Source: Azolla caroliniana | Lineage: Eukaryota; Plantae; Polypodiophyta | Assembly (NCBI GenBank): GCA_043228905.1 | Contig: JBHGNT010000007.1 | Coordinates: forward strand, 8,804,001 to 8,868,000 | Reading direction: 5' to 3' | DNA length: 64,000 bases | In this document: positions 1 through 42,243 of the stretch, in pieces | How positions within the stretch are numbered: position 1 is the stretch's first letter | Layout of the letters: the number at the start of each line of letters is the position of its first letter | Notes under the pieces: model-generated | The model's database searches: none | What the model was told of the DNA's origin: nothing | Seen by the model: the letters and a program-made list of their open reading frames with translations, nothing else | Program-made: the position numbers and the translations under genes

Positions 1-209
1 TAGTAACGACATTTCTCGATTATTCATTCAAGGGGATAACATCAGATTTCACTTAAAACGAAACATACTTGATGCTCTCATTCATTAAACGAAGAACCAC
101 GAACCCAACACTAGGATATCATGTGTCATCTTGGATTTCCACAACTTATGGGTAATTGAGATTTTATTTTATTTTAGAGAAACATCCTCGAACTTTGTCA
201 AGTCCATAC

Positions 210-282
210 TCCATTGTAGTCTAGTTGGTTCGAATACTCTGCTTTCACCTGAGCGACCCGGGTTCAAGTATCGTCAATGGAA
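210..282 (+). pseudogene. tRNA-Glu(TTC), degenerate copy
   Basis: TCCATTG...CTTTCAC...GGTTCAAGT...CAATGGAA, but D, anticodon and T stems carry mismatches (ttcgaatac, ctctg, tatcgtc). Confidence 0.8.
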
Positions 283-862
283 ACATCAAGTCTTGTTCAA
301 CTTGGATCTTATACGAAGAAAGTCTCATAATTGACAAATACAAGACATAAAACCTTGTTGTGAGATGATCTGCATGTTGGGGGTTTCAATGGTGGCCTCT
401 AAATTCGAATATTGAATTTGAAAGTATAATACGTGTTAAAAACCTAAAGCGTATCATGTGACTTACATATTCAAATTTAGGTCTTACCATAAATATCTGA
501 TTAAATCTTGTGGGTTTGCGTTATTCACTGTATTCCCAAGCATTTAGGAATCTTTTTATTCGTCTTCTATAACATAAATCTTAACATATTAACCGATTGA
601 GCTCAAATTAACTCTTATCAAAAGTACGAGGTATATTGCTTAATTAATGCAACGACATTTCTTGATAATTCATTCAAGGGGATAAAATCACGTTTCACTT
701 AAAAGGAAACATATTTGATGCTCTACTTTAGTAAATGAAGAACCACGAGGGCAACACTAGGATATCATGTGTTATCTTGCGTTTCCGCAATTTATGGTTA
801 ATTAAGATTTTATTTTACTTTAGAGAAACATCCTTCGAATCTGTCTACTTCATACTCAATAC

Positions 863-935
863 TCCATTGTAGTCTACTTGGTTAGGATACTCGGCTTTCA
901 CCCGAGCGACCCGGGTTCAAGTCCCGGCAATGGAA
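863..935 (+). tRNA. tRNA-Glu(TTC), near-intact
   Basis: Cloverleaf with acceptor TCCATTG/CAATGGA, anticodon stem CTCGG/CCGAG, loop CTTTCAC and T arm CCGGG-TTCAAGT-CCCGG. One change from the array consensus (G15C). Confidence 0.85.
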
Positions 936-1530
936 ACATCAAGTCTTGTTCAACTTGGATCTTATACGAAGAAAGTCTCATAATTGACAAATAGAAAACA
1001 TAAAACCTTGTGGTCAGATGATCTGCATGTTGTGGGTTACAATGGAAGCCTCTAATTTCGAATATCGATATGTATCGAATCTAAAAGTAAGTATAATACG
1101 TGTTGAAAAACGTAAAGCGTATCATGTGACTTACATATTCAGATTTAGGTCTTACCATAAATATCTGATTAAATCTTGTGGGTTAGCGTTATTCACTGTA
1201 TTCCCAAGCATTTAGGAATCTTTTAATTCGCCTTCTATAACATAAATCTTAACATATTAGCCGATTGAACTCAATTTCACTCGTATCAAAAGTACGAGGT
1301 ATATTGCTTAATTAAAGTAACGACATTTCTTGATAATTCATTCAAGGGGATAAAATCACGTTTCACTTAAAAGGAAACATATTTGATGCTCTACTTTAGT
1401 AAATGAAGAACCACGAGGGCAACACTAGGATATCATGTGTTATCTTGCGTTTCCGCAATTTATGGTGAATTAAGATTTTATTTTACTTTAGAGAAACATC
1501 CTTCGAATCTGTCTACTCCATACTCAATAC

Positions 1531-1603
1531 TCCATTGTAGTCTAGTTGGTTAGGATACTCGGCTTTCACCCGAGCGACCCGGGTTCAAGTCCCGGCAATC
1601 GAA
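1531..1603 (+). tRNA. tRNA-Glu(TTC), near-intact
   Basis: Matches the array consensus except for one acceptor-stem mismatch (CAATCGA). Confidence 0.8.
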
Positions 1604-2198
1604 ACATCAAGTCTAGTTCAGGTGGCATCTTATACAAAAAAATCTAATAAATGACAAATACAAGACATAAAACCTTGTGGTAACATAATCTACATGCAGT
1701 GCGCTACAATGGTGGCCTCCAATTCCAATTGAATTTGAAAGTATAATCCAAGTGCGCTACAATGGTGGCCTCCAATTCCAATTGAATTTGAAAGTATAAT
1801 CCATGTTCAAAATTAGCTCTTACGATAAATACCTAATTAAATCTTGTGGGTTAGAGTTATTCACTGTATTCCCAAGCAGTTAGGAATCTTTTAATTCGCC
1901 TTCTATAACGTAAATCTTAACATATTAGCCGATTGTACTCAATTTCACTCTTATCAAAAGTACGAGGTATATTATTTTACTAAAGTAACGAAATTTCTTG
2001 ATAATTCATTCAAGGGGATAAAATCGCGTTTCACTTAAAAGGAAACATACTTGATGCTCTACTTTAGTAAATGAAGAACCACGAGGGCAACACTAGGATA
2101 TCATGTGTTATCTTGCGTTTCCGCAATTTATGGTTAATTAAGATTTTATTTTACTTTAGAGAAACATCCTTCGAATCTGTCTACTCCATACTCAATAA

Positions 2199-2271
2199 TC
2201 CATTGTAGTCTAGTTGGTTAGGATACTCGGCATTCACCCGAGCGACCCGGGTTCAAGTCCTGGCAATGGAA
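2199..2271 (+). pseudogene. tRNA-Glu(TTC) copy with U33A
   Basis: Anticodon loop is CATTCAC; otherwise near consensus. Confidence 0.75.
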
Positions 2272-2919
2272 ACATCAAGTCTACTTCAGGTGGCATGCTA
2301 TACGAAAAAATCTAATAAATGTTAAATACACGACATAAAACCTTGTGGTAACATAATCTACCTGTACTGCGCTACAATGGTGGCCTCCAATTCTAATTGA
2401 ATTTGAAAGTATAATACATGTTGCTAAACCTAAAGCTGGCCTCCAATTGCAATTGAATTTGAAACTATAATACGTGTTGCAAAACCTAAAGCGTATCATG
2501 TGACTTGTGTATTCAATATTAGGTCTTACCATAAATATGTGATTAAATCTTGTATGTTATAGTGGGTTAGAATTATTCAGTCTATTCCCAATCATTGAGG
2601 AATCTTTTAATTTAATGAAAAAATCGTGTTCTATAACATAAAGCTTAACATTTTAGCCGATTCAACTGAATTTCGCTCGTATCAAAAGTACGAGGTATAT
2701 TGTTTAATTATAGTAACGACATTTCTCGATTATTCATTCAAGGGGATAACATCAGATTTCACTTAAAACGAAACATACTTGATGCTCTCCTTCAGTAAAC
2801 GAAGAACCACGAACCCAACACTACGATATCATGTGTCATCTTGCATTTCCACAACTTATGGGTAATTCAGATTTTATTTTATTTTACAGAAACATCCTCG
2901 AACTTTGTCAAGTCCATAC

Positions 2920-2992
2920 TCCATTGTAGTCTAGTTGGTTCGGATACTCTGCTTGCACCTGAGCGACCCGGGTTCAAGTATCGTCAATGGAA
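2920..2992 (+). pseudogene. tRNA-Glu-derived copy with anticodon TGC
   Basis: Loop CTTGCAC; same degenerate stems as the copy at 210. Confidence 0.75.
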
Positions 2993-3572
2993 ACATCAAG
3001 TCTTGTTCAACTTGGATCTTATACGAAGAAAGTCTCATAATTGACAAATACAAGACATAAAACCTTGTTGTGAGATGATCTGCATGTTGGGGGTTTCAAT
3101 GGTGGCCTCTAAATTCGAATATTGAATTTGAAAGTATAATACGTGTTGAAAACCTAAAGCGTATCATGTGACTTACATATTCAAATTTAGGTCTTACCAT
3201 AAATATCTGATTAAATCTTGTGGGTTTGCGTTATTCACTGTATTCCCAAGCATTTAGGAATCTTTTAATTCGTCTTCTATAACATAAATCTTAACATATT
3301 AACCGATTGAGCTCAAATTAACTCTTATCAAAAGTACGAGGTATATTGCTTAATTAAAGTAACGACATTTCTTGATAATTCATTCAAGGGGATAAAATCA
3401 CGTTTCACTTAAAAGGAAACATATTTGATGCTCTACTTTAGTAAATGAAGAACCACGAGGGCAACACTAGGATATCATGTGTTATCTTGCGTTTCCGCAA
3501 TTTATGGTGAATTAAGATTTTATTTTACTTTAGAGAAACATCCTTCGAATCTGTCTACTCCATACTCAATAC

Positions 3573-3645
3573 TCCGTTGTAGTCTAGTTGGTTAGGATAC
3601 TCGGCTTTCACCCGAGCGACCCGGGTTCAAGTCCTGGCAATGGAA
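3573..3645 (+). tRNA. tRNA-Glu(TTC), fully foldable copy
   Basis: TCCGTTG...CAATGGAA; the two changes from consensus give G:U pairs only; A and B boxes intact. Confidence 0.85.
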
Positions 3646-4293
3646 ACATCAAGTCTAGTTCAGGTGGCATCTTATACGAAAAAATCTAATAAATGACAAA
3701 TACAAGACATAAAACCTTGTGGTAACATAATCTACATGTAGTGCGCTACAATGGTTGCCTCCAATTCCAATTGAATTTGAAAGTATAATACATGTTGCTA
3801 AACCTAAAGCTGGCCTCCAGTTGTAATTGAATTTGAAACTATAATACGTGTTGCAAAACCTAAAGCGTATCATGTGACTTGTGCATTCAAAATGAGTTCT
3901 TACCATAAATATGTGATTAAATCTTGTATGTTATAGTGGGTTAGAATTATTCAATCTATTCCCAATCATTGAGGAATCTTTTAATTTGATAAAAAAATCG
4001 TCTTGTTTAACATAAAGGTCAACATATTAGCCGATTGAACTCAATTTCACTCGTATCAAAAGTACAAAGTATATTGTTTATTTATAGTAACGACATTTCT
4101 CAATTATTCATTGAAGGGGATAAAATCACATTTCTATTAAAAGGAAACATACTTGATGCTCTACTTTAGTAAATGAAGAACCACAAGGCCAACAATACGA
4201 TATCATGTGTCATCCTGCATTTCCACAATTTATGGTTAATTGAGATTTTATTTTATTTTAGAGAAACATCCTTAAACTTTGTTAATTCCATAC

Positions 4294-4366
4294 TCCATTG
4301 TAGTCTAGTTGGTTAGGATACTCTACTTTCACCTGAGCGACCCGGGTTCAAGTCGCGGGAATGGAA
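4294..4366 (+). pseudogene. tRNA-Glu(TTC), degenerate copy
   Basis: Anticodon stem ctcta/ctgag and T/acceptor stem mismatches. Confidence 0.75.
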
Positions 4367-5822
4367 ACATCAAGTCTTGTTCAACTTTGATCTTATACGA
4401 AATTAGTATCATAATTGACAAATACAAGGCATAAATCCTTGTGGTGACATAATCTACCTGTAGTGGGTTACAATGGTTGCCTCAAATTCCAAATATCCAT
4501 ACATATCAAATTTAAAAGGATAATGCGTGTTGAAAAACCTAAAGTGCAGAAATATCTAATTAAATCTTGTATGTTATAGTGGGTTAGAATTATTCAGTCT
4601 ATTCCCAATCAGTGAGGAATCTTTTAATTTGATAAAAAAATTGTCTTGTATAACATAAAGCTTAACATATTAGCAGATGGAAGTCAATTTCACTCGTATC
4701 AAATATACGAGGTATATTGTTTAATAAAAGTAACGACATTTCTCAATTATTTATTCAAGCGGATAAAATCACATTTCACCTAAAAAGAAACAAACCTTGT
4801 TGGCAATGAATCAACATGGGTGGTCAATTCGGGTGCGTTGTTTCACCTAACCCCCGACCAGAAATGCTTCTCATCCTACAAGGTTGGAGATCTCAGATCT
4901 GTAAAGATGGAAAATGAAGGAGCATGCCGAATTGTCGGCATTGGAGATGTGTGTCTGATGACTTCGAGCGGGTGCAAACTAGTGTTGAGAGAGATGTTAG
5001 ACACATTCCGGAGGTTTGATTGAACCTGATATCAGCTGGTCGGCTGGATGATGAAGGCTACATGCGTAGCATCCAGAATGGTGTCATGAAGTTCTTCAAG
5101 GGGAGCCTGGTCGTGGCTCGGGCACGGAAAACCAACACATTGTATGTGATGCATTCTCGATTATGCTGTGGGGAAGCAAATGTGTGCCATATAAGCCAAA
5201 AGGGGATGTGGAAGCTTGTCGAGGACAACCTCATTCTAGAGGTGAAAGACGTGCATCTTGAGAAGTGCACCGATTGCTTGGCCAACAAGAAAAACTGAAT
5301 CTCTTTCTAGACAAGACCACCGTTGAGATGGAATGCACCGCTGGAATTTGTGCATACTGATGTATGCCAAGTGGATACGAAGTCATATGCTGGATCGCAG
5401 TACTTCGTGACTTTCATAGAAGACCACAATCGGAAACTGTGGGTCTCACCGTTGAAGACGAAGGAACAGATATTGTAGGGAATCCGGCTTGAATTTATTG
5501 TGCCGGAGACACCGGAGCTAAATGGATTGGCCAACAGGATGAACCGTATTGTAATTGAGAGAGTCCAGAGTATGCTAGCACATGCATACTTCGGACAACA
5601 ACCTATGTGATAAACAGATCACCCTCAACACCCTTGGAAGTAGACTCACCGCAAAAGGTATGGACAGGTAAAGACATGTCTTACCGGCATCTGAAGGTGT
5701 CTTACGGATCCGGTCGGAAGCCAGATAACACTCGAAGAATTAGCCAGAGTCAGACAAGAGACTGAACCGATCGAAGAAGAAGATCAGGACACTGGAACTA
5801 GACAAGACGCCGAATCAGATTC

Positions 5823-8800
5823 TGTAAAGAAAAGACAATGATTGCATGTAGTGGAAGGACTATGTGTGTTATGCAACAAAGAGAAAGGAGAGAGAGTTCT
5901 CAACCAAGAAGACTGTATATTATCATCCAACAGTAACAAAGTTACAAAAGGATGGTTTAAATACCAACTAAACTAGCTCAAGGGCCCTTTCTACTATTTA
6001 CAAGACTAGCCTGGTATGTCCATGAGATTAGTGTGAAACCTATTTCTATGGGATGTTGAGTTCGATTCTCAACACGCCCTTCGAACACAACTTCTGGATA
6101 TCGAAAAATTGTTTCGGATCGGTCTTCGGAACACTTCGCACTTCGATTGTTTGGCTTCAATCAATAGATCGGGACTGTGCTATTCACTATTTTGTACTCC
6201 CCCTCAAGCTCAGCTAGTCGAGAATAGATAGGCCAACGTTCGACGTGAATCGCCACAGCTTGTCGATACCTAGGGCTTTTGTGAAAATGTAGGTTACCTG
6301 TAGATTCATTCTGATGTGGTGTAAGGCTATATCTCCAGCTTGCACGTTGTCGTGAAGATTTTCGTCCACAAGCGGAAACCCGAGCAACGAGAGCCAAAGA
6401 GTGATGTGCAACGTTGCACATGTACATAATGTATTTGTAATAGTAATAAGGGTAAAGTGTATGGTGCTAGAAATGCCCCATAGGATCCCTAAGGCATAAA
6501 GGTGATGTGGTCTTGTGCGCACATCCACGCGCGAGAGAGAGAGAGAGAGGTACTATGCGGTACATAGGTACCTAGTTGTTTGTGTGGAGGTGGGAGTTAA
6601 GGGGCCATCAATCTCACCCTCCCCAAATCAAGGCAAATGTCCCCTTTGAATGAAAGGGGATATTTTAGTCTCACTTTTGTAAACGGTCTTCCCTCCTTGT
6701 GCTATAAAAGGAGAGGGAAGGCACCATTGTGGGGGTTGCCTATTTTGAGTGTGCGAGGTATACCACATAGGTCGAGCGTTAGGGTTAGGGTTAGGGTTTC
6801 TTTATCTTTATCTTCATCTTCGTCAGTTAGGGTTTCGAGTAGTCGTTTGGTGCGGCCTATGCGGCCACCATTTTGTAATCGTTCATTTCGTTTTAATATA
6901 TCTTGTTGATCATCTTGTCTCCATCTTCCTCTTGTTCATTCTTCTTCTTCTTGAGCAAAGCTTCCATTCCATGTCCGATTCCTTCTCCTCTACTCCTTAG
7001 TCCAAGACCCCCGCGGTCCCGCCCTTCGCCACGCACGCGCGTAGCAATGCGATAACGCGTTCGCAGATGAAGTGGTACTACACTTCGACATGCTTAGTCC
7101 GAAGTCTGCATGTGGAATACGGGGTTCCGTGCTAGGTAGATACTGCTCATGTTGTCGCAGTATAGACAAATCGGATCCTTGATGGGTATGCCCAGATCCT
7201 TAAGTATACACTTGAGCCATACGACTTCGCACACGGCGACTGCCGCGCCCTTGTATTCGGCCTCTGTGCTCAACAGTGCGACTGTCGGTTGCTTCTTGCT
7301 ACTCCATAAGATTTCTCTGCTACCGAGGGAGAAGATGAATTCTGATGTTGACCGTCTATCCACTTTATAACCTGCCCAATCCGCGTCTGTGTACTCTTCA
7401 AGTCGAATTATCGTATTTGACCTGTATCTGACATCGTAATCCATCGTACCACCGGTGTACCGAAGCAACCATCATTGTTGAATCGTACTTGCATTCCTTG
7501 ATAGACAATCTAGCCGACCGAGACTAGGTTTTTCGTGATAGTAGTAACATGCACTACGTTCTTGAGGTAGGTTTGTTTGTTGTCATTTCCGAATGGGACG
7601 TTCCCAATATGCTATATTGGATGAGTCATGTCATCACCTATCTCGACATATCCGGGACGTTTGGGTTTTCGTAATTCTCAAAACCAATCTTCATGAGACG
7701 TCATGTGGTTGGATGCTCCCGAGTCAACAAACCATACATTCTCAGAGGGTGTGCTGCTTATTTCACCTTGTGTCGCCATTAAGTGTGCTTTGTGCCTCAT
7801 CATGAACATTTTTCTACGATCGTCGTAGTTGGAATTCGATGCATAATTCGTGAGCATTCCGCTACGATCGTTGTAGTCAAAATTCGATGCGTAATTCATG
7901 AACTATCGGTTGGTTGAAGCCGACTCTTGCTTCTTCTTTCGGCACTCCTCTTCGTAGTGACCGAGTTTTCCACAGTATCCACATTTGATTGTGTTATTAC
8001 GGTTTCTTGGTCTGACATGATGATTCCCCCTTCTGCCAAACTCTCTTGGATTGTTCCTGTCCGCTTGCCATTAGTGGGAGTTACGCCCTTGGGTCTGCTG
8101 ACCGTGACGGCCTTGTCCCAATCGAGCTCTATTTCCACAGCCGAAATTTCTTCCATCATTCGATTGGGAGTAGAGCACCTAACCCTTTGGTGCGTTGCTT
8201 CTTTGTTGGGTGTGATTTTCCTCGACCAACAATATTGACTAGAGATCGAAAAAGGTGGGAGGATTCTCTCTTGCGAGGACGGCGAACCTTATTGTGCTGA
8301 ATTGAGGTGCCAAGCCCTTGAGGCATATTTGCACCATTTCTTCATCGTCAATGCCAACATTGATCGACCCAAGGGCATCACACAACTCCTTGATCTTCAA
8401 GGTGTAGTTGCCGATTGACACGTCCCTTTGTTGAATGTCATTCCACTACTAACGACGCTGGAGCTTGCAAGCAACCGTTTTGGCCGCAAAGATCTTCTCG
8501 AGATTCCCCACGCTTCTTTCGGCATTTTCGGCTCTCGAATATAGCCAAGCATGTGATCATGTACGCATTATGCAAGGCATATAACACATGGCTTGCGACC
8601 TGCTCCCATACTGGGTAGTCGACGTGTGGCGGGTTGGGTTGCGTTTCACGAGCTCCTTCAATATAGCTCCAATATCCTTATCCGACAAGGTACTGATACA
8701 TCTTGTACTCCCAAGATGTGAAGTTTTTCCTGTCGAGCTTCTCCGTAGGAAGAGCACTTCCCATATGAGTATTCATGGTGATTTCTTCTCTGTTTCCTTG

Positions 8801-9146
8801 GTCTATGCGAATGTTGTGAAGTGATTAGCCAGCTCTTCGTGAATGCGTTTTTTTGGTCTGGGCTTGGATCAAGCTACCACGCACTCTGATACCATGTAAA
8901 GAAATGAGAGTGATTGTATGTAGCAGAAAGATTGTGTGTGTTATGCAACAAAGAGAAAAGAGAGAGAGTTCTCAACCAAGAAGACTGTATATTATCATCC
9001 AACAGTAACAAAGTTACGAAAGGTTGGTTTAAATACCAACTAAACTAGGGCAAAGGCCCTTTCTACTATTTATAAGACTAGCCTGGTATGTCCATGAGCT
9101 TAGTGTGAAACCTATTTCTATGGGAACTTGACTTTGTTTTTTAACA
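5823..9146 (-). mobile_element. Internally deleted Ty1/copia LTR element with two LTRs and a TSD
   Basis: Homologous ~252-bp TG..CA LTRs at 5823-6074 and 8895-9146; 5-bp TSD GATTC (5818-5822, 9147-9151); Met-type PBS (CTCTGATACCA, 8884-8894); gag, WFVDSGASNHM and RNase H (DADWAG, SKKQPTVA, YCDN) remnants. Integrase and most of RT are missing. Confidence 0.93.
6348..7054 (+). mobile_element. Gypsy solo LTR inserted in the RNase H region of the copia element
   Basis: Starts TGTCGTGAAGATTTTCG like the LTR at 45628; splits ...HFxxER/VQAGDI; 4-bp TSD ACGT/ACGC; similar to 36585-37331. Confidence 0.85.
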
Positions 9147-9876
9147 GATTCGGATGAATAACAAACGGAGGAACTGGTAGCCGAGAACCAAGGAAGAAGA
9201 TATCCTCTTAGAGAGAGAAAAGCCCGCCGGAGATTTCCGGATGCAGAGCATGTGTTGCTGACCAATGAGGGGGAGCTAGAAAGTTTCGAAGAAGCAAATA
9301 AAGACACCCCCAACCACAAGTGGTTGAGTGCCATGTAGGATGAGATGGATTCCTTGCATGACATACATATGAGCTGACGGAGTTGCCGAAAGGAAAGAGG
9401 GCACTTTGGAACAAGTGGGTGTACAAGTTGAAACCGGGGAACTCCGGAGATCCACCAAGGTATAAGGCCCGCATTCTGATGAAGGGCTTCCAGCAGAAGA
9501 AAGGAGTGGATTTCGATGAGATCTTTTCCCCGGTAGTGAAGATGACATCCATTCGAATGGTGTTGAGCATAGTGGCAAGCATGGACATCGAGGTAGAGCA
9601 ACTAGACGTCAAGACGACATTCCTACATGGCGACCTCGAAGAAGGGATCTACATGCAACAACAGGAAGGATTCTTCAGAAAAGGGAAGGAGCACCTGGTA
9701 TGCCAGTTGAAGAAGAGCTTATACGGACTGAAGCAAGCTCCCTAGCAATGGTACAGGAAGTTCGACTCCTTCATGACCGACAATGGGTACCCAAAAATAT
9801 AGGCCGATCACTGCGTGTTTTTGAAGATGTTTGACGGAGGAGATTTTCTCATCCTCCTACTGTATGTGGACGACAG

Positions 9877-10030
9877 TGAATCGAGACTTAGATAGTAGAT
9901 TGAGCTTTAATGGAAAGCTTCTTATTACTTCGTTCTCTCTTAGATATACAATATTCTTCTTGTCATCACACATTACAATGTTAGGTATTCACTTATATAC
10001 TAAGCCCGAACTTATTACCGAGTTCACACT
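9877..10030 (-). mobile_element. Truncated LTR fragment of the minus-strand copia (same as 12926- and 33243-)
   Basis: Near identity to 12926-13080; fused directly to a tRNA array unit. Confidence 0.75.
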
Positions 10031-10163
10031 CTCCTTTAGTAAACAAACAACCACGAAGCCAACACTACGATATCATGTGTCATCTTGCGTTTCCGCAATT
10101 GATGGTTAATTGAGATTTTATTTTATTTTAGGGAAACATCCTTCAACTTTGTCAAGTCCATAC

Positions 10164-10236
10164 TTTTTTGTAGTCTAGTTGGTAAGGATACTCGGCTTTC
10201 ACCCAAGCCACCGGGGTTCAAGTCGCGGCAATGGAA
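10164..10236 (+). pseudogene. tRNA-Glu(TTC), degenerate copy in a single array unit (~10030-10667)
   Basis: 5' acceptor strand replaced by TTTTTTG; CTTTCAC loop and B box retained. Confidence 0.75.
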
Positions 10237-10667
10237 ACATCAAGTCTAGTTCAAGTTGCATCTTATACGAAAACAGTATCATAATTGACAAATACAAGAC
10301 ATAAAACCTTGTGGTGACATAATCTACATGTAGTGAGTTACAATGGTTGCCTCCAATTCCAAATATTCATACATATCAAATTGAAAAGGATAATGCGTGT
10401 TGAAAAACCTAAAGTGCATAAATATCTAATTAAATCTTGTATGTTATAGTGGGTTAGAATTATTCAGTCTATTCCCAATCAGTGAGGAATCTTTTAATTT
10501 GATAAAAAATTTGTCTTGGATAACATAAAGCTTAACATATTAGCAGATGGAAGTCAATTTCACTCGTATCAAATATACGAGGTATATTGTTTAATAAAAG
10601 TAACAACATTTCTCAATTATTTATTCAAGCGGATAAAATCACATTTCACTTAAAAGGAAACATACTT

Positions 10668-21500: not shown

Positions 21501-21924
21501 ATATGGATAAACTGTTGTATCGAATGGGTCTTAACCGGTTACTAACTGGCACTGTTAATGATCATAGCACACGCGTAAGATTAATTATATTAAGCACAAG
21601 ACGGTAAGCAAATAGATCCTAAACACTACGTCAAATAGCAGCACATCTTTTAATTATCCATCCTTGATTACATTCTTGGCAAGTCCTTTTATAGGTCTCC
21701 GACTGAGTTACAAAACGATGACAACCGGCAACCGGCAACTATCCGGTCGGATCCGAATCAGCATACCCATTCTAGGTCCGTCCGTCCGCTTCTCAAAATC
21801 ATATAATACTCCGCTTCTACAAATAACCTAATTAAATCCTTATTAATTTCAACTCCCTATTCCTAATTAAACACCCCTTTCACATTCTAGACTCTAACCA
21901 GCCCTTTGTACTTGACGGCCAACA
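18546..21924 (-). mobile_element. Ty3/gypsy 5' portion (LTR 21425-21924, Arg-type PBS, gag with internal tandem duplication)
   Basis: TG..CA LTR abutting the tRNA array; minus-strand TTTTTGGCGACCACA PBS (21407-21417); gag motifs LEGPAARW, CTTCLNPGHSIVEC and VTTRSKGK; ~19560-20150 duplicated at ~20150-20700. Confidence 0.8.
20812..21371 (+). mobile_element. Probable gypsy solo LTR
   Basis: Begins TGTCGTGAAGATT, has a TATAAAA box and ends GAGACA. TSD not confirmed on the right side. Confidence 0.6.
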
Positions 21925-22214
21925 TCTATAACATAAACCATAACATATTAGCCGATTGAACTTAGTTTCACTCGTATCAAAAGTACGAGGTATATTGCTT
22001 AATTAAAGTAACAACATTTCTCGATTATTCATTCAAGGGAATCAAAACACATTTCACTTAAAACGAAACATAGTTGATGCTCTCCTTTAGTAAACGAAGA
22101 ACCACGAAGGCAACACTACGATATCATCTGTCATCTTGCGTTTCCGCAATTTATGGTTAATTGAGATTTTATTTTATTTTAGAGAAATATCCTTCAACTT
22201 TGTCAAGTCCATAC

Positions 22215-22287
22215 TCCATTATAGTCTAGTTGGTTAGGATACTCGGCTTTCACCTGAGCGACCCGGGTTCAAGTCCCGGCAATGGAA
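22215..22287 (+). tRNA. tRNA-Glu(TTC), near-intact, in array unit 21925-22482
   Basis: Two changes from consensus (G7A; a G:U pair in the anticodon stem). Confidence 0.75.
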
Positions 22288-22482
22288 ACATCAAGTCTAG
22301 TTAAGCTGGCATCTTATACGAGAAAATCTAATAATTGACAAATACAAGACATAAAACCTTGTGGTGACATAATGTACATGTAGTGCGCTACAATGGTGGC
22401 CTCCTATTCCAATTGAATTTGAAAGTATAACACGTGTTGCAAAACGTAAAGCTGGCCTCCAATTGAATTTGAATTTGAAACA

Positions 22483-23790
22483 TGATGGGAACTTAACGCT
22501 CCTTATGCACAAAGCTCGGCCACAACCGAGATTCTTTTCATACACAGAATAACGGGAAATAAAACACGATCCAAAGGAGAGGAAGATACACACACACAAC
22601 ACAGGAGGTTTACATGGAAAACCCCAAACTAGGGGAAAAACCACGGCAGCCCACAGGCTGCAAACTGTCACTATGTATGAATGTACAAAACAGTGAGTTC
22701 TCGGAGGCAACGACCTCGGACTCACGCTCTTCGCCACAAGCGGCGGTTACAACAGAGGCAACGACCTCTTTCTCTCTCTCTCTCTCTCTCTGTACACTAT
22801 TACGTGCTCTCTCTTCTTCTTGCACCAACAAGAAAAGTAACAACAACAGTTACTAAAAGTTTGCCCTAAGTCATATTTATACTAATATGACTTTTCGGCT
22901 ATTTACAAATATAGCCACGATGGGCTCTCAGAAACATATTTACGAATATGTCTCTTCCTCCGGTTCATACCGGGTCTGCACTTTCCGGCTCTCCGTAGCC
23001 GGGTACTCCTCATCCGGTTTGTACCGGGCCTACACCATCCGGCTCTCCGTAGCCGGGTACTCCTCATCCGGTTCGTACCAGGCTTGCACCATCCGGCTCT
23101 TCGTAGCCGGGTACTCCTCATATGGTTTCTTCTTCTCCCTTCCCATCCGGAGGGACCTGTCTCTCAACAAACTCCCCCTTCACTCTGGCATGGGGTGTCT
23201 TACCAATCTAATCCTCTTCCGGCATGCGTCCAGCTTGTCGGGTATCAGCACTTTGGTCAGCATATCTGACCCATTCTCGGCCGTGTGGATCTTCGTCAGT
23301 GCGAACTCCTGGTCATCTACTCTTTCCCGGATCCAGTGATACCTCCGTTGGATATGCTTCGTCCGGGAATGGTAGGCCGCATTCTTAGCAACGTGGATGG
23401 CACTTTGACTGTCGCAGTAGAGTCGGTATTCCTCTTGCCGTATACCGAGCTCTCCGATGAAGTCCTTCATCCATAAAATTTCCTTGCCGGCTTCCACAGC
23501 CGCCATGTACTCCGCCTCTGTGGTTGACAATGCAATCGTCTTCTGCAGCCTCGACTACCACGAAACAGCTCCCCCTGCATATGTCATTACATACCCGGAT
23601 GTAGACCGGCTGGTATCCACATCAGCCGACATGTCCGAGTCGGTGAAACCGTCCAGTTGAGGTTTTCCGGAGCCGAATCGGCGACGCATATTTGAAGTGC
23701 CCTTCAAATACCGGAGTATCCATTTGACCGCGTTCCAGTGCTCCTTGCCGGGATTGCTCATAAACCAGCTCACCACTCCGATTGCGTATC
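22483..23790 (-). mobile_element. Ty1/copia 3' end: RNase H, PPT and 3' LTR (22483-23169)
   Basis: ORFs 23555-23776 and 23180-23530 (HWNAVKWILRYL, STTEAEYMA, YHSRTKHI, DMLTK); PPT AAGGGGGAGTT; LTR contains 54-bp tandem repeats and a (CT)n tract. Confidence 0.9.
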
Positions 23791-23875
23791 CATATCTTGC
23801 GTTTCCGCAATCTATGGTTAATTGAGATTTTATTTTATTTTCGAGAAACGTCCTTCACCTTTGTCTACTCCATAC

Positions 23876-23948
23876 TCCATTGTAGTCTAGTTGGTTAGGA
23901 TGCTCGGTTTTCACCTGAGTGACCCGGGTTCAAGTCCCGGCAATGGAA
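23876..23948 (+). tRNA. tRNA-Glu(TTC), foldable copy
   Basis: Acceptor and T stems perfect; loop TTTTCAC (this internal T4 run could terminate Pol III). Confidence 0.7.
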
Positions 23949-24540
23949 ACATTAAGTCTAGTTCAAGTTACATCTTACACGAAGAAATCTAATAATCGAC
24001 AAATACAAGACATAAAACCTTGTGGTGACATAATCTACATGTAGTGCGTAACAATGGTGGCCTCCAGTTCCAATTGAATTTAAAAGTATAATACGTGTTG
24101 CAAAACCTAAAGTGTATCATGTCACTTGTGCATTCCAAATTACGTCTTACCATAAATAGCTGATTAAATCTTGTATGTTATAGTGGGTTAGAATTATTTA
24201 GTCTATTCCCAATCATTGAGGAATCTTTTGATTTGATAAAAAATTCGTCTTCTATAACATAAAGCTTAAGATATTAGCCGATTAAACTCAATTTCACTAT
24301 TATGAAAAGTACGACCTATATTGTTTTATTAAAGTAACGACATTTCCTGATAATTCAATCAACGGAAAAAAATCAGCTTTCGCTTAAAAGGAAACATACT
24401 TGATGCTCTACTTTCGTAAATGAAGTAGCACGATCGCAACACTAGGATATCATATGTTATCTTGCATTTCCGCAATTAATCGTTAATTGAGATTTTATTT
24501 TATTTTAGAGAAACATCCTTCAACTTTGTCAAGTCTATAA

Positions 24541-24613
24541 TCCATTGTAGTCTAGTTTGTAAGGATACTCGTCTTTCACCCGAGCGACCGGGGTTCAAGG
24601 TGCGGCAATGGAA
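24541..24613 (+). pseudogene. tRNA-Glu(TTC), degenerate
   Basis: D-loop GG lost; T stem mismatched. Confidence 0.75.
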
Positions 24614-25184
24614 ACAGCAAGTCTAGTTCAGGTTGCATCTTATACGAAAAAAGTCTCATAATTGACAAATACAAGAAATAAAACCTTGTGCTGACATAAT
24701 CTAAATGTTGTGGGTTACAATGGTGGCCTCCAATTTCAAATATCCATGCGTATCGAATTTGAAAGTATAATACGTGTTGCAAAATTTCTCCAATTAGGTG
24801 TTACCATAAATATTTGATTAAATCTTTTGGGTTAGAATTATTCACTTTATTCCCAAGCATTGAGGAATCTTTTAATTTGATAAACAATTCGTCTTGTATA
24901 ACATAAAGCTTGACATATTAGCCCATTGAACTCAATTTCACTCGCATCAAAAAAACGAGATTTATTGTTTAATTAAAGTAATGACATTTCTCGATTATTC
25001 ATTCAAGGGGATAAAATCACCATTCACTTAAAAGGAAACATACTTGATGTTGTGCTGTAGGAAACAACGAACCACGAAGGCAACACTAGCATATCATGTG
25101 TGATCTTGCGTTTCCGTAATTTATGGTTAATTGAGATTTTTGTTTTTTTTAAAGAACCATCCCTCAACTTTGTCAAGTCCATAC

Positions 25185-25257
25185 TCCATGGTAGTCTAGT
25201 TGGTAAGGATACTCGGGTTTCACCCAAGCGACCGAGGTTCAAGTCGCGGCAATGGAA
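25185..25257 (+). pseudogene. tRNA-Glu(TTC), degenerate
   Basis: Multiple stem mismatches; TTC retained. Confidence 0.75.
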
Positions 25258-25822
25258 ACATCAAGTCTAGTTCAAGTGGCATCTTATACGAAAAAAGTGT
25301 TATAATTAAAAAATTACATGTTGTTCGTTACAATGGTGGCCCCCAATTCTAAATATTCATGCATATCAAATTTGAAACTATAATACGTGTTAAAAAACCT
25401 AAAGCGTGTAATGTGACTTGCACATTCAAAATTAGGTCTTACCATAAATATCTTATTAAATCTTGTGTGAGAGAATTATTCATTCTATTCCCAATCATTG
25501 AGGAATCTTTTAATTTGATAAAAAAATCATCTGATATAACATAATGTTGAACATATTAGCTGATTGAACTCAATTTCACTTATATCAAAAGCACAAGGTA
25601 TATTCTTTAATTAAAGTAACGACATTTCTTGATTATTCAGTCAAGGGGATAAAATCACATTTTACTTAAATGGAAACATACTTGATACTCTACTTTAGGA
25701 AACGAAGAACCACGAAGGCAAGACTACAATATCATGTGTCATCTTGCGTTCCTACAATTAATGGTTAATTGAGATTTTATTTTATTTTAGATGAAAATCC
25801 TTGAATTTTGTTTACTCCATAC

Positions 25823-25895
25823 TCCATTGTAGTGTAGTTGGTTACGATACTCGACTTTCACCTGAGCGACCTGGGTTTAAGTCCCGACAATCGGA
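25823..25895 (+). pseudogene. tRNA-Glu(TTC), degenerate
   Basis: B box mutated (GGTTTAAG); several mismatches. Confidence 0.75.
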
Positions 25896-26471
25896 ACATA
25901 ACGTCTAGTTCATCATGCATCTTATACGAAAAAAGTCTCGTAATTGACCAATACATGACATAAAACCTTGTGGTGAGATAATGTAAATGTAGTGGGTTAA
26001 AATGGTGGCCGCCAATTCCAAATATCCTTGCGTATTGAATTTGAAAGTATAATACGTGTTGAAAAAATTAAAGCGTATCATGTGACTTCTGCATTCAAAA
26101 TAAGGTCCTACCATAAATATCTGATTAAATCTTGTATGTTATAGTGGGTTAGAATTATTCACTCTGTTCCTAATCATTGAGGACTCTTTTAATTTGACAA
26201 AAAAATCGTCTTCTATAACATAAAGCTTAACATATTAGCCGATTGAACTGAATTGTTGTATTAAAGAACAACATTTCTCCATAATTCATTCAAGGGGATA
26301 AAATCATATTTTACTTAAATGGAAACACACTTGATGCTCTCGTTTAGTAAACAAAGAACCACGAAGACAACACTAGGATATCATGTGTTATCTTGTGTTT
26401 CCGCAATTTATAGTTAATTGAGATTTTATTTTATTTTAGAGAAACATCCTTCAAATTTCTCAAACCCATAC

Positions 26472-26544
26472 TCCATTGTAGTCTAGTTGGTTAGGATACT
26501 CGGCTTTCACTCGAGCGACCGAGGTTCAAGTCCCGGCAATGGAA
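26472..26544 (+). tRNA. tRNA-Glu(TTC), near-intact
   Basis: Two changes from consensus (one G:U pair, one T-stem mismatch). Confidence 0.7.
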
Positions 26545-27150
26545 AAATCAAGTCTATTTCAAATTGCATCTTATACAAAAGAAGTCTCATAATTGACAAA
26601 TATAAGACATAAAGCTTTGTGGTGACATAATCTACATGTGGTGGGTTACAATGGTGGCCGCCAATTTGCAATATCTATGCGTATCGAATTTGAAACTATA
26701 ATACGTGTTGAAAAACTTAGAGCGTATCATGTGACATGCATATTCAAAATTAGGTCCTACCATAAATATTTGTTTAAATCTTGTATGTTATAATGGGTTA
26801 GAATTATTCACTCTATTCCCAATCATTGAGGAATCTTTTAATTTGATAAAAAATTCGTCTTCTATAATATAAAGGTTAACATATTAGCCGATTGAACTCA
26901 ATTTCACTCGTATCAAAAGTACGAGGTGTATTGTTTTATTAAAGTAACGACATTTCTTCATAATTCATTCAAGGGGATCAAATCATATTTCACTTACATG
27001 GAAACATAGTTGATGCTCTGTTTTAGTAAACGAAGAACAACGAACGCAACACTACGATATCATGTGTCATCTTGCATTCTCGCAATTTATGGTTAATTGA
27101 GATATTATTTTATTTTACAGAAACATCCTTCAACTTTTCTAACTCCATAC

Positions 27151-27223
27151 TCCATTGTCGTCTAGTTGGTTAGGATATTCTGCTTCCACGCGAGCGACCC
27201 GGGTTCAAGTACCATCAATGGAA
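27151..27223 (+). pseudogene. tRNA-Glu-derived copy with anticodon TCC
   Basis: Loop CTTCCAC; degenerate stems. Confidence 0.75.
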
Positions 27224-27806
27224 ACATCAAGTCTTGTTCAACTTGGATCTTATACGAAGAAAGTCTCATAATTGACAAATACAAGACATAAAACCTTGTG
27301 GTGAGATAATCTGCATGTTGTGGGTTACAATGGGGGCCTCCAATTTTGAATATCGATTTGTATCGAATTTGAAAGTATAATACGTGTTACAAACCTAAAG
27401 CGTATCATGTGACTTACATATTCAAAATTAGGTCTTACGATAAATATCTAATTAAATCTTGTGGGTTAGAGTTATTCACTGTATTCCCAAGCAGTTAGGA
27501 ATCTTTTAATTCGCCTTGTATAACATAAATCTTAACATATTAGCCGATTGAACTCAATTTCACTCGTATCAAAAGTGCAAGGTATATTGTCGAATTAAAG
27601 TAACGACATTTCTGGATAATTCATTCAAGGGTATAAAATCACGTTTCCCTTAAAAGGAAACATACTTAATGCTCTACTTTAGTAAATGAAGAACGGTGAG
27701 GGCAACACTAGGATATCATGTGTTATCTTGCGTTTCCGCAATTTATGGTTAATTGAGATTTTATTTTATTTTAGGGAAACATCCTTCAAATCTCTCTACT
27801 CCATAC

Positions 27807-27879
27807 TCCATTGTACTCTAGCTGGTTAGGATACTCGGCTTTCACCCGAGCGACCCGGGTTCAAGTCTCAGCAATGGAA
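27807..27879 (+). pseudogene. tRNA-Glu(TTC) copy
   Basis: G10C and T-stem mismatches (tctcagc). Confidence 0.7.
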
Positions 27880-28516
27880 ACATCAAGTCTAGTTCAGGTG
27901 GTATCTTATACGAAAAAATCTAATAAATGACAAATACAAGACATAAAACCTTGTGATTTCATATGCGCTACAATGGTGGCCTCCAATTCTAATTGAATTT
28001 GAAAGTATAATACATGTTGTTAAACCTAAAGTTGGCCTCCAATTGCAATTGAATTTTAAACTATAATACGTGTTGCAAAACCTAAAGCGTATCATGTGAC
28101 TTGTGCATTCAAAATTAGGTCTTACCATAAATATGTGATTAAATCTTGTATGTTATAGTGGGTTAGAATTATTCAGTCTATTCCCAATCATTGACGAATC
28201 TTTTAATTTTGAGAAAAAAATCGTCTTCTATAACATAAAGCTTAACATTTTAGCCGATTCAACTGAATTTCTCTCGTATCAAAAGTACGAGGTACATTGT
28301 TTAATTATAGTAACGACATTTCTCGATTATTCATTCAAGGGGATAATTTCAGATTTCACTAAAAATGAAACATACTTTATGCTCTCCTTTAGTAAACGAA
28401 GAACCACAAAGCCAACATTACAATATCATGTGTCATCTTGCATTTGCACAATTTATGGTTAATTGAGATGTTATTTTATTTTAGAGAAATATCCTCAAAC
28501 TTTGTCAAGTCCATAC

Positions 28517-28589
28517 TCCATTGTAGTCTAGTTGGTTAGGATACTCTGCTTTCACGCGAGCGACCCAGGTTCAAGTATCGTCAATGGAA
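28517..28589 (+). pseudogene. tRNA-Glu(TTC), degenerate
   Basis: Same variant type as 210 and 2920 (ctctg, tatcgtc). Confidence 0.75.
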
Positions 28590-29139
28590 ACATCAAGTCT
28601 CGTTCAACTTGGATCTTATACGAAGAAAGTCTCATAATTGACAAATACAAGACATAAAACCTTGTGCTGAGATGATCTGCATGTTGGGGGATTCAATGGT
28701 GCCCTCCAATTTTGAATATCAAATTTGAAAGTATAATACGTGTTGAAAACCTAAAGCGTATCATGTGACTTACATATTCAAAATTAGGTCTTATCATAAA
28801 TATCTGATTAAATCTTGTGGGTTAGAGTTAGGAATCTTTAAATTCGCCTTGTATAACATAAATCTTAACATATTAGCCGATTGAACTCAATTTCACTCGT
28901 ATCAAAAGTGCAAGGTATATTGTTGAATTAAAGTAACGACATTTCTGGATAATTCATTCAAGGGTATAAAATCACGTTTCCCTTAAAAGGAAACATACTT
29001 GATGCTCTACTTTAGTAAATGAAGAACCGTGAGGGCAACACTAGGATATCATGTGTTATCTTGCGTTTCCGCAATTTATGGTTAATTGAGATTTTATTTT
29101 ATTTTAGAGAAACATCCTTCAAATCTCTCTACTCCATAC

Positions 29140-29212
29140 TCCATTGTACTCTAGCTGGTTAGGATACTCGGCTTTCACCCGAGCGACCCGGGTTCAAGTC
29201 TCGGCAATGGAA
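29140..29212 (+). tRNA. tRNA-Glu(TTC), near-intact
   Basis: G10C plus a G:U pair in the T stem; anticodon arm perfect. Confidence 0.65.
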
Positions 29213-29777
29213 ACATCAAGTCTAGTTCAGGTGGTATCTTATACGAAAAAATCTAATAAATGACAAATACAAGACATAAAACCTTGTGGTATCTTCAGGT
29301 GGGGGATTCAATGGTGCCCTCCAATTTTGAATATCAAATTTGAAAGTATAATACGTGTTGAAAACCTAAAGCGTATCATGTGACTTACATATTCAAAATT
29401 AGGTCTTATCATAAATATCTGATTAAATCTTGTGGGTTAGAGTTATTCACTGTATTCCCAAGCAGTTAGGAATCTTTTAATTCATCTTCTATAACATAAA
29501 TCTTAACATATTAGCCGATTGAACTCAATTTCACTCGTATCAAAAGTACGAGGTATATTGCTTAATTAAAGTAACGACATTTCTTGATAATTCATTCAAG
29601 GGGATAAAATCACATTTCCCTTAAAAGGAAACAGATTTGATGCCCTACTTTAGTAAATGAAGAACCACGAGGGCAACACTAGGATATCATGTGTTATCTT
29701 GCCTTTCCGCAGTTTATGGTTAATTGAGATTTTATTTTATTTTAGAGAAACATCCTTCAAATTTCTCGAACCCATAC

Positions 29778-29850
29778 TCCATTGTACTCTAGTTGGTTAG
29801 GATACTCGGCTTACACCCGAGCGACCCGGGTTCAAGTCCCGGCAATGGAA
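29778..29850 (+). tRNA. tRNA-Glu body with switched anticodon TAC (Val)
   Basis: CTCGG-CTTACAC-CCGAG; acceptor and T arms perfect; G10C. Confidence 0.65.
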
Positions 29851-30493
29851 ACATCAAGTCTAGTTCAGGTGGCATCTTATACGAAAAAATCTAATAAATG
29901 ACAAATACAAGACATAAAACCTGGTGGTAACATAATCTACATGTAGTGCGCTACAATGGTTGCCTCCAATTCCAATTGAATTTGAAAGTATAATACATGT
30001 TGCTAAACCTAAAGCTAGCCTCCAATTGCAATTGAATTTGAAACTGTAATACGTGTTGCAAAACCTAAAGCGTATCATGTGACTTGTGCATTCAAAACTA
30101 GGTTTTACCATCAATATGTGATTGAATCTTGTATGTTATAGTGGGTTAGAATTATTCAATCTATTCCCAATCATTGATGAATCTTTTAATTTAATAAAAA
30201 AATCGTCTTGTATAACATAAAGCTTAACATATTAGCCGATTGAACTGAATTTCACTAGTATCAAAAGTACAAAGTATATTGGTTAATTATAGTAACGACA
30301 TTTCTCGATTATTCATTCAAGGGGATAAAATCACATTTTAGTTAAAAGGAAACATACTTGATGCTCTGCTTTAGTAAACAAAGAACCAGAAAGCCAACAC
30401 TTTGATATCATGTGTCATCTTGCGTTTCCGCAATTGATGGTTAATTGAGATTTTATTTTATTTTAGGGAAACATCCTTCATCTTGTGTTTCCG

Positions 30494-30554
30494 TAGTTGG
30501 TAAGGATACTCAGCTTTCACCCGAGCGACCGGGGTTCAAGTCGTGGCAATGGAA
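30494..30554 (+). pseudogene. 5'-truncated tRNA-Glu(TTC)
   Basis: Starts at TAGTTGG; 5' acceptor strand missing. Confidence 0.75.
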
Positions 30555-30985
30555 ACATGAAGTCTATTTCAAATTGCATCTTATACGAAAACAGTATCAT
30601 AATTGACAAATACAAGACATAAAACCTTGTGGTAACATAATCTACCTGTAGTGGGTTACAATGGTTGCCTCCAATTCCAAATATCCATACATATCAAATT
30701 CAAAAGGATAATGCGTGTTGAAAAACCTAAAGTGCATAAATATCTAATTAAATCTTGTATGTTATATTGGGTTAGAATTATTCAGTCTATTCCCAATCAA
30801 TGAGGAATCTTTTAATTTGATAAAAAATTTGTCTTGTATAACATAAAGCTTAACATATTAGCAGATGGAAGTCAATTTCACTCGTATGAAATATACGAGG
30901 TATATTGTTTAATAAAAGTAACGACATTTCTCAATTATTTATTCAAGCGGATAAAATCACATTTCACTTAAAAGGAAACATATTT

Positions 30986-42074: not shown

Positions 42075-42243
42075 AGCGGACTATTGAAGCATGGGACACA
42101 AATAGTCCGAGCAATCACAAGACCCCACAAGAAAGAAGAGTGTGTGGATTGCGAGGAGAAGCAACATGTGTCACACCTAGTGGCGCATGTAAACTAGTAC
42201 TACCCGACAAGAAGCACAAGCACCGGAAGAAGAATTCGAGAAG

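What the first reader, a model, noticed from the sequence alone, without database searches (positions are those of the whole stretch)
1..30985. tRNA-Glu(TTC) satellite: at least 20 tandem tRNA-bearing units forming the scaffold of a heterochromatic TE nest
Seen: a ~620-720 bp unit with one 73-nt tRNA-Glu recurs 20 times on the same strand and continues past the left edge. The consensus folds into a perfect cloverleaf, yet by eye no single copy equals it. Several copies (863, 1531, 3573, 22215, 26472) are within 1-2 changes. Known: tandem tRNA arrays exist (Arabidopsis Ser-Tyr-Tyr and Pro clusters, Entamoeba arrays), and TFIIIC-bound tRNA genes act as chromatin boundaries next to S. pombe centromeres. 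Inference: this is a tRNA-derived satellite that could act as a structural or boundary element, a tRNA-fragment source, or a dosage reserve rather than an ordinary tRNA locus.
Basis: partly seen in the sequence, partly recalled or inferred. Interest (0 to 1): 0.8.

Follow-up and report, generated by a model that had tools for sequence, protein, structure and literature searches.

The report
Decaying piece of giant tRNA-Glu arrays
This plant DNA holds 20 head-to-tail, mostly damaged copies of one glutamate tRNA gene among jumping-gene debris; related organisms carry the same tRNA in arrays with very different spacers, so it is likely a decaying outlier of an old and probably very large gene family that selection keeps intact elsewhere.

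Summary
Observation confirmed: 20 same-strand tRNA-Glu(TTC) copies in 623-721 bp units, in four blocks (13.2 kb) split by copia/gypsy debris; 0 of 20 equal the consensus. Locally the array is decaying: private changes hit the tRNA at about the spacer rate (ratio 0.87-0.95), stems break without compensation, 3 anticodons have changed, and a broken copy type was re-amplified four times. But the family is not a dead satellite. The exact 73-nt consensus occurs in two metagenome contigs inside a different 520-bp tandem unit whose spacer is a colinear but only about 60% identical homolog. Read-contig data show organism-specific flanks around the same tRNA in further organisms, at depths hinting at thousands of copies. 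Best reading: an old multicopy tRNA gene family evolving like 5S rDNA (unequal crossing-over, spacer turnover, birth-and-death), of which this window is a decaying outlier. The host is a non-seed plant, probably a fern; an Azolla-like genome (7,848 tRNA genes reported) would fit, but this is unproven. No evidence for a boundary or scaffold role; expression is untested. New variant of known plant tRNA clusters; interest 0.5.

The parts
1..4792 (+). Array block 1: 7 units (u01-u07), begins inside a spacer
10029..10680 (+). Array block 2: one unit (u08), duplicate of u20/u07 type
21925..22482 (+). Array block 3: one partial unit (u09)
23793..30998 (+). Array block 4: 11 units (u10-u20)
210..282 (+). 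tRNA-Glu copy, 7 changes, D, anticodon and T stems broken (amplified broken type A)
863..935 (+). tRNA-Glu copy, 1 change (G15C), stems intact; G15 tertiary pair lost (recalled rule)
1531..1603 (+). tRNA-Glu copy, 1 change, acceptor pair broken
2199..2271 (+). tRNA-Glu copy, 2 changes, invariant U before the anticodon lost
2920..2992 (+). Broken type A copy, 7 changes, anticodon now TGC
3573..3645 (+). tRNA-Glu copy, 2 changes giving G-U pairs; no obvious lesion
4294..4366 (+). tRNA-Glu copy, 5 changes, 4 pairs broken
10164..10236 (+). tRNA-Glu copy, 8 changes, 4 pairs broken
22215..22287 (+). tRNA-Glu copy, 2 changes, one acceptor pair broken
23876..23948 (+). tRNA-Glu copy, 4 changes, stems intact; best Rfam score in window (63.8 bits)
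24541..24613 (+). tRNA-Glu copy, 7 changes, A and B boxes hit
25185..25257 (+). tRNA-Glu copy, 7 changes, 5 pairs broken
25823..25895 (+). tRNA-Glu copy, 9 changes, 5 pairs broken
26472..26544 (+). tRNA-Glu copy, 3 changes, 2 T-stem pairs broken
27151..27223 (+). Broken type A copy, 8 changes, anticodon now TCC
27807..27879 (+). tRNA-Glu copy, 4 changes, 2 pairs broken
28517..28589 (+). Broken type A copy, 6 changes, 5 pairs broken
29140..29212 (+). tRNA-Glu copy, 3 changes, one D-stem pair broken
29778..29850 (+). Glu-body copy, 2 changes, anticodon now TAC
30494..30554 (+). 5'-truncated tRNA-Glu copy (first ~12 nt deleted)
4793..10028 (+). Copia debris X1, joined to the array without an LTR; holds nested element Y
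5823..9146 (-). Nested LTR element Y: 252-bp LTRs 90.5% identical, primer site, 5-bp target duplication
10681..14109 (+). Copia debris X2 (RVT_2, SH3_retrovirus); duplicate of X3
14110..21924 (+). Gypsy pol remnant (RVT_1, integrase) and unclassified TE-like DNA with a 552-bp tandem duplication
22483..23792 (-). Fragment of an LTR element between u09 and u10; array deleted across the right junction
30999..34410 (+). Copia debris X3, 4.0% from X2, same array junction

Best explanation
The window holds a decaying, transposon-broken piece of a tandem tRNA-Glu(TTC) gene family that is likely old and probably runs to thousands of copies, and that likely evolves as 5S rDNA does: unequal crossing-over would amplify and reshuffle units, the spacer turns over between lineages, and selection on a working subset of copies would hold the 73-nt gene fixed. 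Shown: the array, its mosaic units, the lesions, the duplication of array ends with copia debris, the identical tRNA in a homologous but diverged unit elsewhere. Inferred: the crossing-over mechanism, the copy number, a functional subset outside this window, and silencing of this piece. In this piece most copies are pseudogenes; 2 or 3 of 20 could still give a tRNA if transcribed.
For: Local decay: 0 of 20 copies equal consensus; 33 variant alleles at 42 stem sites against 17 at 31 other sites, none compensatory; private changes at 0.95 and 0.87 of the composition-matched spacer rate, P 0.41 and 0.23; one broken type present four times (210, 2920, 27151, 28517). Unequal exchange: nearest neighbours switch along units, and u01/u05 differ by 1.9% at a four-unit offset. 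Past constraint: shared alleles in the tRNA at 0.66 and 0.70 of expectation, P 0.02 and 0.046. Constraint between lineages: 3 exact consensus copies in L001/L002 inside a 520-bp unit; spacers colinear homologs, z 5.6, 0 of 300 shuffles reach the score, 60% identity against 57% for shuffles (nhmmer E 2e-4); two exact copies on L001 have 28 of 150 differences in their trailers; organism D differs from L002 at 18 of 160 flank positions and 0 of 73 tRNA positions, P 0.001. Scale: summed contig depth on the tRNA 52,000-177,000 against 11-18 on the unique flank.
Against: No expression data of any kind. The metagenome search demanded an exact 53 of the 73 nt, so the first match is identical there by construction. 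The 160-position flank was chosen after seeing the table, 24 rows were not shown, and tRNA depth pools all loci. The tool warns that summed depth is no copy number. The spacer homology is near the noise floor in identity and weak in the last 150 nt, so a shared tandem ancestor is not proven. Damaged variants are amplified elsewhere too: 4 of 7 tRNA hits in L001/L002 are damaged or partial, and two contigs of organism C with 12-13 differences have depths 506 and 646 against 20-38. Within-window P values are modest and copies are not independent. No T run of 4 or more lies within 112 nt downstream of any copy, nor within 156 nt of the three exact copies.
Confidence: 0.65

Rival explanations
1. 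The arrays are dead from birth. Each lineage repeatedly amplified a working single-copy tRNA-Glu gene with its own flanks into a neutral satellite; selection acted only on the dispersed source genes.
For: Private changes are neutral; broken variants are amplified here and in organism C; no proximal terminator; Arabidopsis SYY copy number was modelled as drifting neutrally (PMC2886086 abstract and section 17).
Against: Shared alleles are depleted in the tRNA; two exact copies inside one array have trailers 19% apart; spacers of the two families are colinear over much of the unit; it needs the same isotype to be amplified independently in several organisms.
Confidence: 0.2
2. The array is a chromatin boundary or structural scaffold that works through TFIIIC bound to its A and B boxes.
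For: Sits in gene-free LTR debris: all Pfam hits above cut-off among 85 ORFs of 120 aa or more are retroelement-type domains, a zinc knuckle or DUF4100; yeast precedent (PMC13578239 passage).
Against: Both boxes intact in only 6 of 20 copies; the same TE nest lies between and beyond the blocks, so no border is visible; between lineages the whole 73 nt is conserved, not just the boxes; the function is not described in plants.
Confidence: 0.07
3. This very array is a silenced but usable reserve, like the Arabidopsis SYY cluster, switched on in some cells to supply tRNA-Glu or tRNA fragments.
For: 6 of 20 copies are within 2 changes and 2-3 have no clear lesion; SYY is silenced and reactivated in root tips (PMC7544208 passages; PMC13437025 passages); CG transitions are raised in the u08/u20 pair (6 of 34 CG sites against 1% elsewhere).
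Against: 16 of 20 copies have broken stem pairs; recent changes are not filtered.
Confidence: 0.06
4. The unit is a tandemly arranged non-autonomous mobile element (Helenus-type TRIM or tRNA-derived SINE).
For: tRNA-bearing TRIMs inflate tRNA counts in rust fungi and occur in Selaginella (PMC10886601 results); L002 shows an array edge beside unique DNA.
Against: No primer site matching those of the window's own LTR elements (best 2-4 mismatches in 10-11 nt), purine runs 7-10 nt, A runs at most 7; no alternation of LTR and internal part; array edges fall inside spacers; the tRNA is an exact gene, not a degenerate head.
Confidence: 0.02

Closest known systems
Plant tRNA homoclusters and the Arabidopsis Ser-Tyr-Tyr (SYY) array (PMC2886086 abstract and section 17; PMC13437025 passages, sections 6 and 10, Table S3 rows; PMC7544208 passages)
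   Same: Head-to-tail tRNA genes, unequal crossing-over, lineage-specific homogenisation, a mix of working and non-working copies, repeat-rich setting.
   Different: Isotype: no Glu-only land-plant cluster among the Glu rows of the 5-in-5-kb summary sheet (chromosome-scale genomes only). Heavier decay here, no proximal T run, and an apparent scale of hundreds to thousands of copies rather than tens.
5S rDNA arrays, e.g. the >20,000-copy 5S arrays of pike (PMC5437419, abstract)
   Same: Pol III gene conserved while spacers fall into several diverged families; extreme amplification.
   Different: The gene is a tRNA; pike arrays show little pseudogenisation, whereas most copies here are damaged.
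Ceratodon purpureus tandem tRNA repeats, including Val-Glu(TTC)-Phe units (PMC12652284 passages)
   Same: Non-seed plant, tandem units that include tRNA-Glu(TTC).
   Different: Mixed-isotype units with identical copies; here one isotype with 1-9 changes per copy.
Azolla filiculoides tRNA gene excess: 7,848 genes and >10,000 tRNA-like sequences (PMC13437025 Table S1 row; PMC13578239 passage; 10.1101/2021.12.21.473619 passages)
   Same: Order of magnitude fits the depth seen; the host here is a non-seed plant.
   Different: The passages read ascribe the excess to genome duplication and repeat content, not to arrays of one isotype. That the window is from Azolla is not shown. I recall that the supplement of PMC6786969 names tRNA-Glu as the abundant class, but that file could not be read.
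Helenus TRIMs and SINE-derived satellites (PMC10886601 results part 1; PMC10702118 abstract)
   Same: tRNA-related sequence in high-copy, sometimes tandem repeats.
   Different: No LTR, primer site, purine tract or tail found; the tRNA is a complete gene sequence.

Membership tests
Plant tRNA homocluster (PMC13437025 definition) | At least 5 tRNA genes of one isotype within 5 kb | tested here: met
   5 ARAGORN Glu calls in 863-4366; 7 copies in 4.8 kb
Plant tRNA homocluster (PMC13437025 definition) | Homogeneous flanks from tandem duplication | tested here: met
   Units 2-18% apart over their whole length
Functional Pol III tRNA gene | Intact cloverleaf, anticodon and invariant bases | tested here: inconclusive
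   Met by the consensus and 2-3 of 20 copies; 16 of 20 have broken pairs
Functional Pol III tRNA gene | T-run terminator close behind the gene | tested here: not met
   First T4 at +113 to +334; 7-10 T in the first 25 nt, as reported for non-flowering plants (~8)
Functional Pol III tRNA gene | Transcription and mature tRNA | not testable with these tools
   No RNA holder listed; contigs only
Concertedly evolving multigene family (5S rDNA type) | Gene conserved between lineages while spacer diverges | tested here: met
   73 of 73 identical against ~60% spacer identity; 0 of 73 against 18 of 160
Concertedly evolving multigene family (5S rDNA type) | Spacers more alike within than between species | tested here: met
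   Window spacer in A and B but not D; L002 spacer in D but not A or C; 4 organisms only
Concertedly evolving multigene family (5S rDNA type) | Homogeneous, expressed major arrays | not testable with these tools
   No genome held; this piece is heterogeneous (pi 0.11-0.13)
Neutral satellite DNA | No constraint on any part of the unit | tested here: not met
   Neutral for private changes only; shared alleles depleted and tRNA frozen between lineages
Helenus TRIM | Two LTRs with primer site and purine tract between them, 5-bp target duplication | tested here: not met
   (primer sites tested only against the window's own elements); junctions
tRNA-derived SINE | Degenerate tRNA head, A-rich or simple tail, dispersed copies with target duplications | tested here: not met
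   Exact gene, longest A run 7, head-to-tail; dispersal genome-wide not testable
TFIIIC boundary element | TFIIIC occupancy and a chromatin transition | not testable with these tools
   Needs ChIP; both boxes intact in 6 of 20 copies
Dicistronic tRNA-snoRNA gene | snoRNA directly behind the tRNA | tested here: not met
   No other credible Rfam family at E up to 1 in 1-4800, L001 or L002

The most novel reading that the evidence does not exclude
One group of non-seed plants (probably the fern Azolla) keeps a single tRNA-Glu(TTC) gene in rDNA-like arrays of thousands of copies, older than its species splits, under selection, with species-specific spacers and long read-through trailers. These arrays, not genome duplication, would account for the record tRNA gene count reported for that fern.
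Probability: 0.35. Interest if true: 0.75.

Novelty: new variant of a known kind. Interest (0 to 1): 0.5.

Why it matters
Plant tRNA clusters known so far hold tens of genes of a few isotypes. A tRNA gene run as an rDNA-scale tandem family across related species would be a different regime, and it makes a stated open point testable: why one fern has about 7,800 tRNA genes, and whether that raises tRNA supply. It also warns annotators that most such calls are damaged copies, some with switched anticodons (2 of 12 ARAGORN calls here are not Glu). For this window alone the finding is more ordinary: a decaying array fragment in an LTR nest.

Tried and rejected
No whole genome is held, so copy number and position relative to centromeres could not be measured. 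No RNA holder was listed for the array; this is no evidence on expression. The one RNA-guess run laid (X14) covered only the unique flank of L002. Assembly artefact rejected for the unit family. TRIM, SINE and tRNA-snoRNA readings rejected. Clean transposon insertion into the array was looked for by eye at seven array/TE junctions; no paired target duplication was seen, three join straight to copia internal sequence, and an LTR end at 22483 was not confirmed. A methylation signature is mixed: raised CG transitions in TE pairs and u08/u20, none among array singletons (C>T 0.24 per CG site, 0.28 per other C), CpG observed/expected 0.91-0.94. Overdispersion of changes per copy was not significant (P 0.07). 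The species could not be fixed: the best named relatives of the gypsy pol are from Riccia at up to 63% identity, closer hits are unnamed. Nine literature searches listed no paper on tRNA-Glu tandem arrays in a fern; subscription papers and the main supplement of PMC6786969 were not seen. Earlier findings held nothing on this array.
Full report
Observation. A blastn and an ungapped scan of both strands find 20 copies of a 73-nt tRNA, all on the + strand, spaced 623-721 bp apart where contiguous. They lie in four blocks, 1-4792, 10029-10680, 21925-22482 and 23793-30998, together 13,208 bp. The majority sequence folds as a cloverleaf with anticodon TTC; 0 of 20 copies equal it, 19 differ by 1-9 changes and one has lost its 5' end. 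ARAGORN of 20 (10 Glu, 1 Ala, 1 Val) and Rfam 13 of 20, at 30-64 bits; the exact consensus scores 66.9. The unit family is real DNA: 9 of 16 listed runs (organisms A and B, four studies) hold 0.33-0.44 of its sampled words, and contigs of X1, X3 and X9 cover 30 of 30 bins of a two-unit stretch with head-to-tail joints. One of these runs may be the source sample. Unit order was not checked with long reads.

State of the copies. Stem pairs are broken in 16 of 20 copies. There are 33 variant alleles at 42 stem sites and 17 at 31 other sites, none compensatory, and 3 anticodons have changed. Copies 3573 and 23876 show no clear lesion; 863 keeps its stems but has G15C. A and B boxes are both unchanged in 6 of 20. 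The first run of four T lies 113-334 nt downstream. This is a family trait, since the three exact copies found elsewhere have it at +157 or +304, and non-flowering plants have weaker T tracts (PMC13578239 section 20).

tRNA against spacer inside the window. Mean divergence from consensus is 6.4% in the tRNA and 8.4% in the spacer (Wilcoxon P 0.03); pairwise diversity is 0.112 and 0.134. Matched for base class, parsimony steps in the tRNA are 0.75 of expectation (P 0.019). Private changes are neutral (ratio 0.95, P 0.41; 0.87, P 0.23 using the 337 of 580 spacer columns away from indels). Alleles shared by two or more copies are depleted (0.66, P 0.02; 0.70, P 0.046). Copies are related and recombined, so these P values are rough. 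The pattern fits constraint on older lineages and free decay since.

How the array was built. Nearest neighbours change along the unit (u02 has the upstream part of u03/u06 and the downstream part of u01/u05/u15), and u01-u02 matches u05-u06 at 1.9%. This is what unequal crossing-over gives (inference). One broken tRNA type occurs four times (210, 2920, 27151, 28517), each followed by a less damaged copy, so broken copies were carried along. The same junction between a unit with a 36-bp deletion and copia internal sequence occurs three times (4793, 10681, 30999). u08+X2 and u20+X3 differ by 4.0-4.4%, u07 and u08 by 7.1%. Array ends were thus duplicated together with TE debris. Element Y (5823-9146) has LTRs 90.5% identical and a 5-bp target duplication. 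No paired target duplication was seen by eye at the seven array/TE junctions. All 85 ORFs of 120 aa or more were scanned; hits above cut-off are retroelement-type domains, a zinc knuckle and DUF4100. Evidence for methylation is mixed.

Outside evidence changes the picture. An exact search with 53 nt of the tRNA found two metagenome contigs. They hold the full 73-nt consensus three times and four damaged or partial copies, in a tandem unit of about 520 bp that blastn does not match to the window spacer. The spacers are nonetheless colinear homologs: nhmmer E 2e-4; global alignment z 5.6, 0 of 300 shuffles as high, 60% identity against 57% for shuffles, reversed controls at background. The 53 nt are identical by construction for one copy per contig. 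The other 20 nt and the second exact copy on L001 are not, and the two L001 copies differ at 28 of 150 trailer positions. Laid on L002, organism D covers the whole unit and shows another letter at 79% of depth or more at 18 of 160 flank positions and at 0 of 73 tRNA positions (P 0.001; 0.009 if the dimorphic position 45 is counted; flank limits chosen after the fact, 24 rows not shown). Organisms A and C cover essentially the tRNA only, each with its own flanks; C shows just 3 variable places. Summed depth on the tRNA is 51,873 (A), 97,877 (C) and 177,218 (D), against 16-18 (A) and 11-12 (D) on the unique flank. The tool states that this is no copy number, so I take it only as a hint of thousands. 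In A the tRNA depth (39,827) is at least ten times that of most window-spacer bins, so this spacer family is probably a minority. Damaged variants are amplified in C as well (12-13 differences, depths 506 and 646 against 20-38).

Host. The gypsy pol has its best named relatives in the liverwort Riccia, at up to 63% identity, which points to a non-seed plant. Azolla filiculoides is reported to have 7,848 tRNA genes and over 10,000 tRNA-like sequences, ascribed to genome duplication and repeats, with a growth benefit unproven. The fit is suggestive, not shown. I recall that the supplement of PMC6786969 names tRNA-Glu as the abundant class; that file could not be read, and 'tRNA' searches of the main text and nine other supplements gave nothing on it.

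Mechanism and rivals. Best (0.65): an old multicopy tRNA-Glu family in birth-and-death and concerted evolution, with a working subset elsewhere and this piece decaying among LTR debris. Main rival (0.2): neutral satellites seeded repeatedly from working single genes. A silenced reserve of SYY type (0.06) fits only a few copies. TRIM or SINE (0.02) fails its features.

Comparison and novelty. It meets the definition of a plant tRNA homocluster and works like the SYY array and like 5S rDNA. Described clusters are mostly Pro, Ser-Tyr, Gln, Ala and Ile. Among the Glu rows of the 5-in-5-kb summary sheet the only Glu-only cluster is in Drosophila (30 of 150 places seen, chromosome-scale genomes only), and Ceratodon has Val-Glu-Phe units. 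Nine searches listed no paper on fern tRNA-Glu arrays. Papers seen: PMC10886601 abstract and results part 1; PMC12652284, PMC7544208, PMC6786969, 10.1101/2021.12.21.473619 and 10.1101/2020.04.13.039131 passages; PMC13437025 passages, sections 6 and 10, supplement rows; PMC13578239 passages, section 20, supplement rows; PMC2886086 abstract and section 17; PMC5437419, PMC10702118 and PMC10701932 abstracts. Verdict: new variant of a known kind, interest 0.5; 0.75 if the rDNA-scale, selected array family is confirmed (probability 0.35).

Noticed in passing
L002:1027-1472: A contig of the RNA-guess run X14 matches 1442-1472 and continues with sequence from about 1027-1056, which suggests an exon joint; the tRNA array edge at 1472 therefore abuts a spliced gene, or the contig is chimeric.
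   Followed up: partly
L002:1686 (tRNA position 45): A C/A dimorphism at 40-71% of depth is shared by organisms A, C and D; 19 of 20 window copies carry C and none A, so other array families probably carry the A form.
   Followed up: partly
window 1531 and 863 flanks; L002:1642-1715: Loose ends show further flank families around the same tRNA: at least one more in A and B, one more in D, and distinct ones in C.
   Followed up: partly
window spacer about +240; L002 about 1833-1845: A 13-nt motif is identical in the two spacer families although the rest is about 60% alike; role unknown.
   Followed up: no
window 2920, 27151, 29778: Anticodon switches to TGC, TCC and TAC in a Glu body; 29778 has only one other change and is called tRNA-Val by ARAGORN.
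   Followed up: partly
window 38566-46754: Gypsy element with an open 1120-aa pol frame and LTRs 2-4.5% apart, nested in an LTR of the family found at 22520-23170; named relatives are from Riccia.
   Followed up: partly
window 51274-57639 and 57978-63637: Two copia elements, LTRs 3.7% and 1.3% apart; the first holds an AT-rich ~158-bp tandem repeat at 52197-52845.
   Followed up: no
window 19602-20708 and 34865-36025: Two-copy tandem duplications of 552 and 580 bp inside TE DNA.
   Followed up: no
array units: Transversions are unusually common among array changes (ts/tv 0.45-0.88 in three unit pairs, against 0.55-5 in TE pairs); unexplained.
   Followed up: partly
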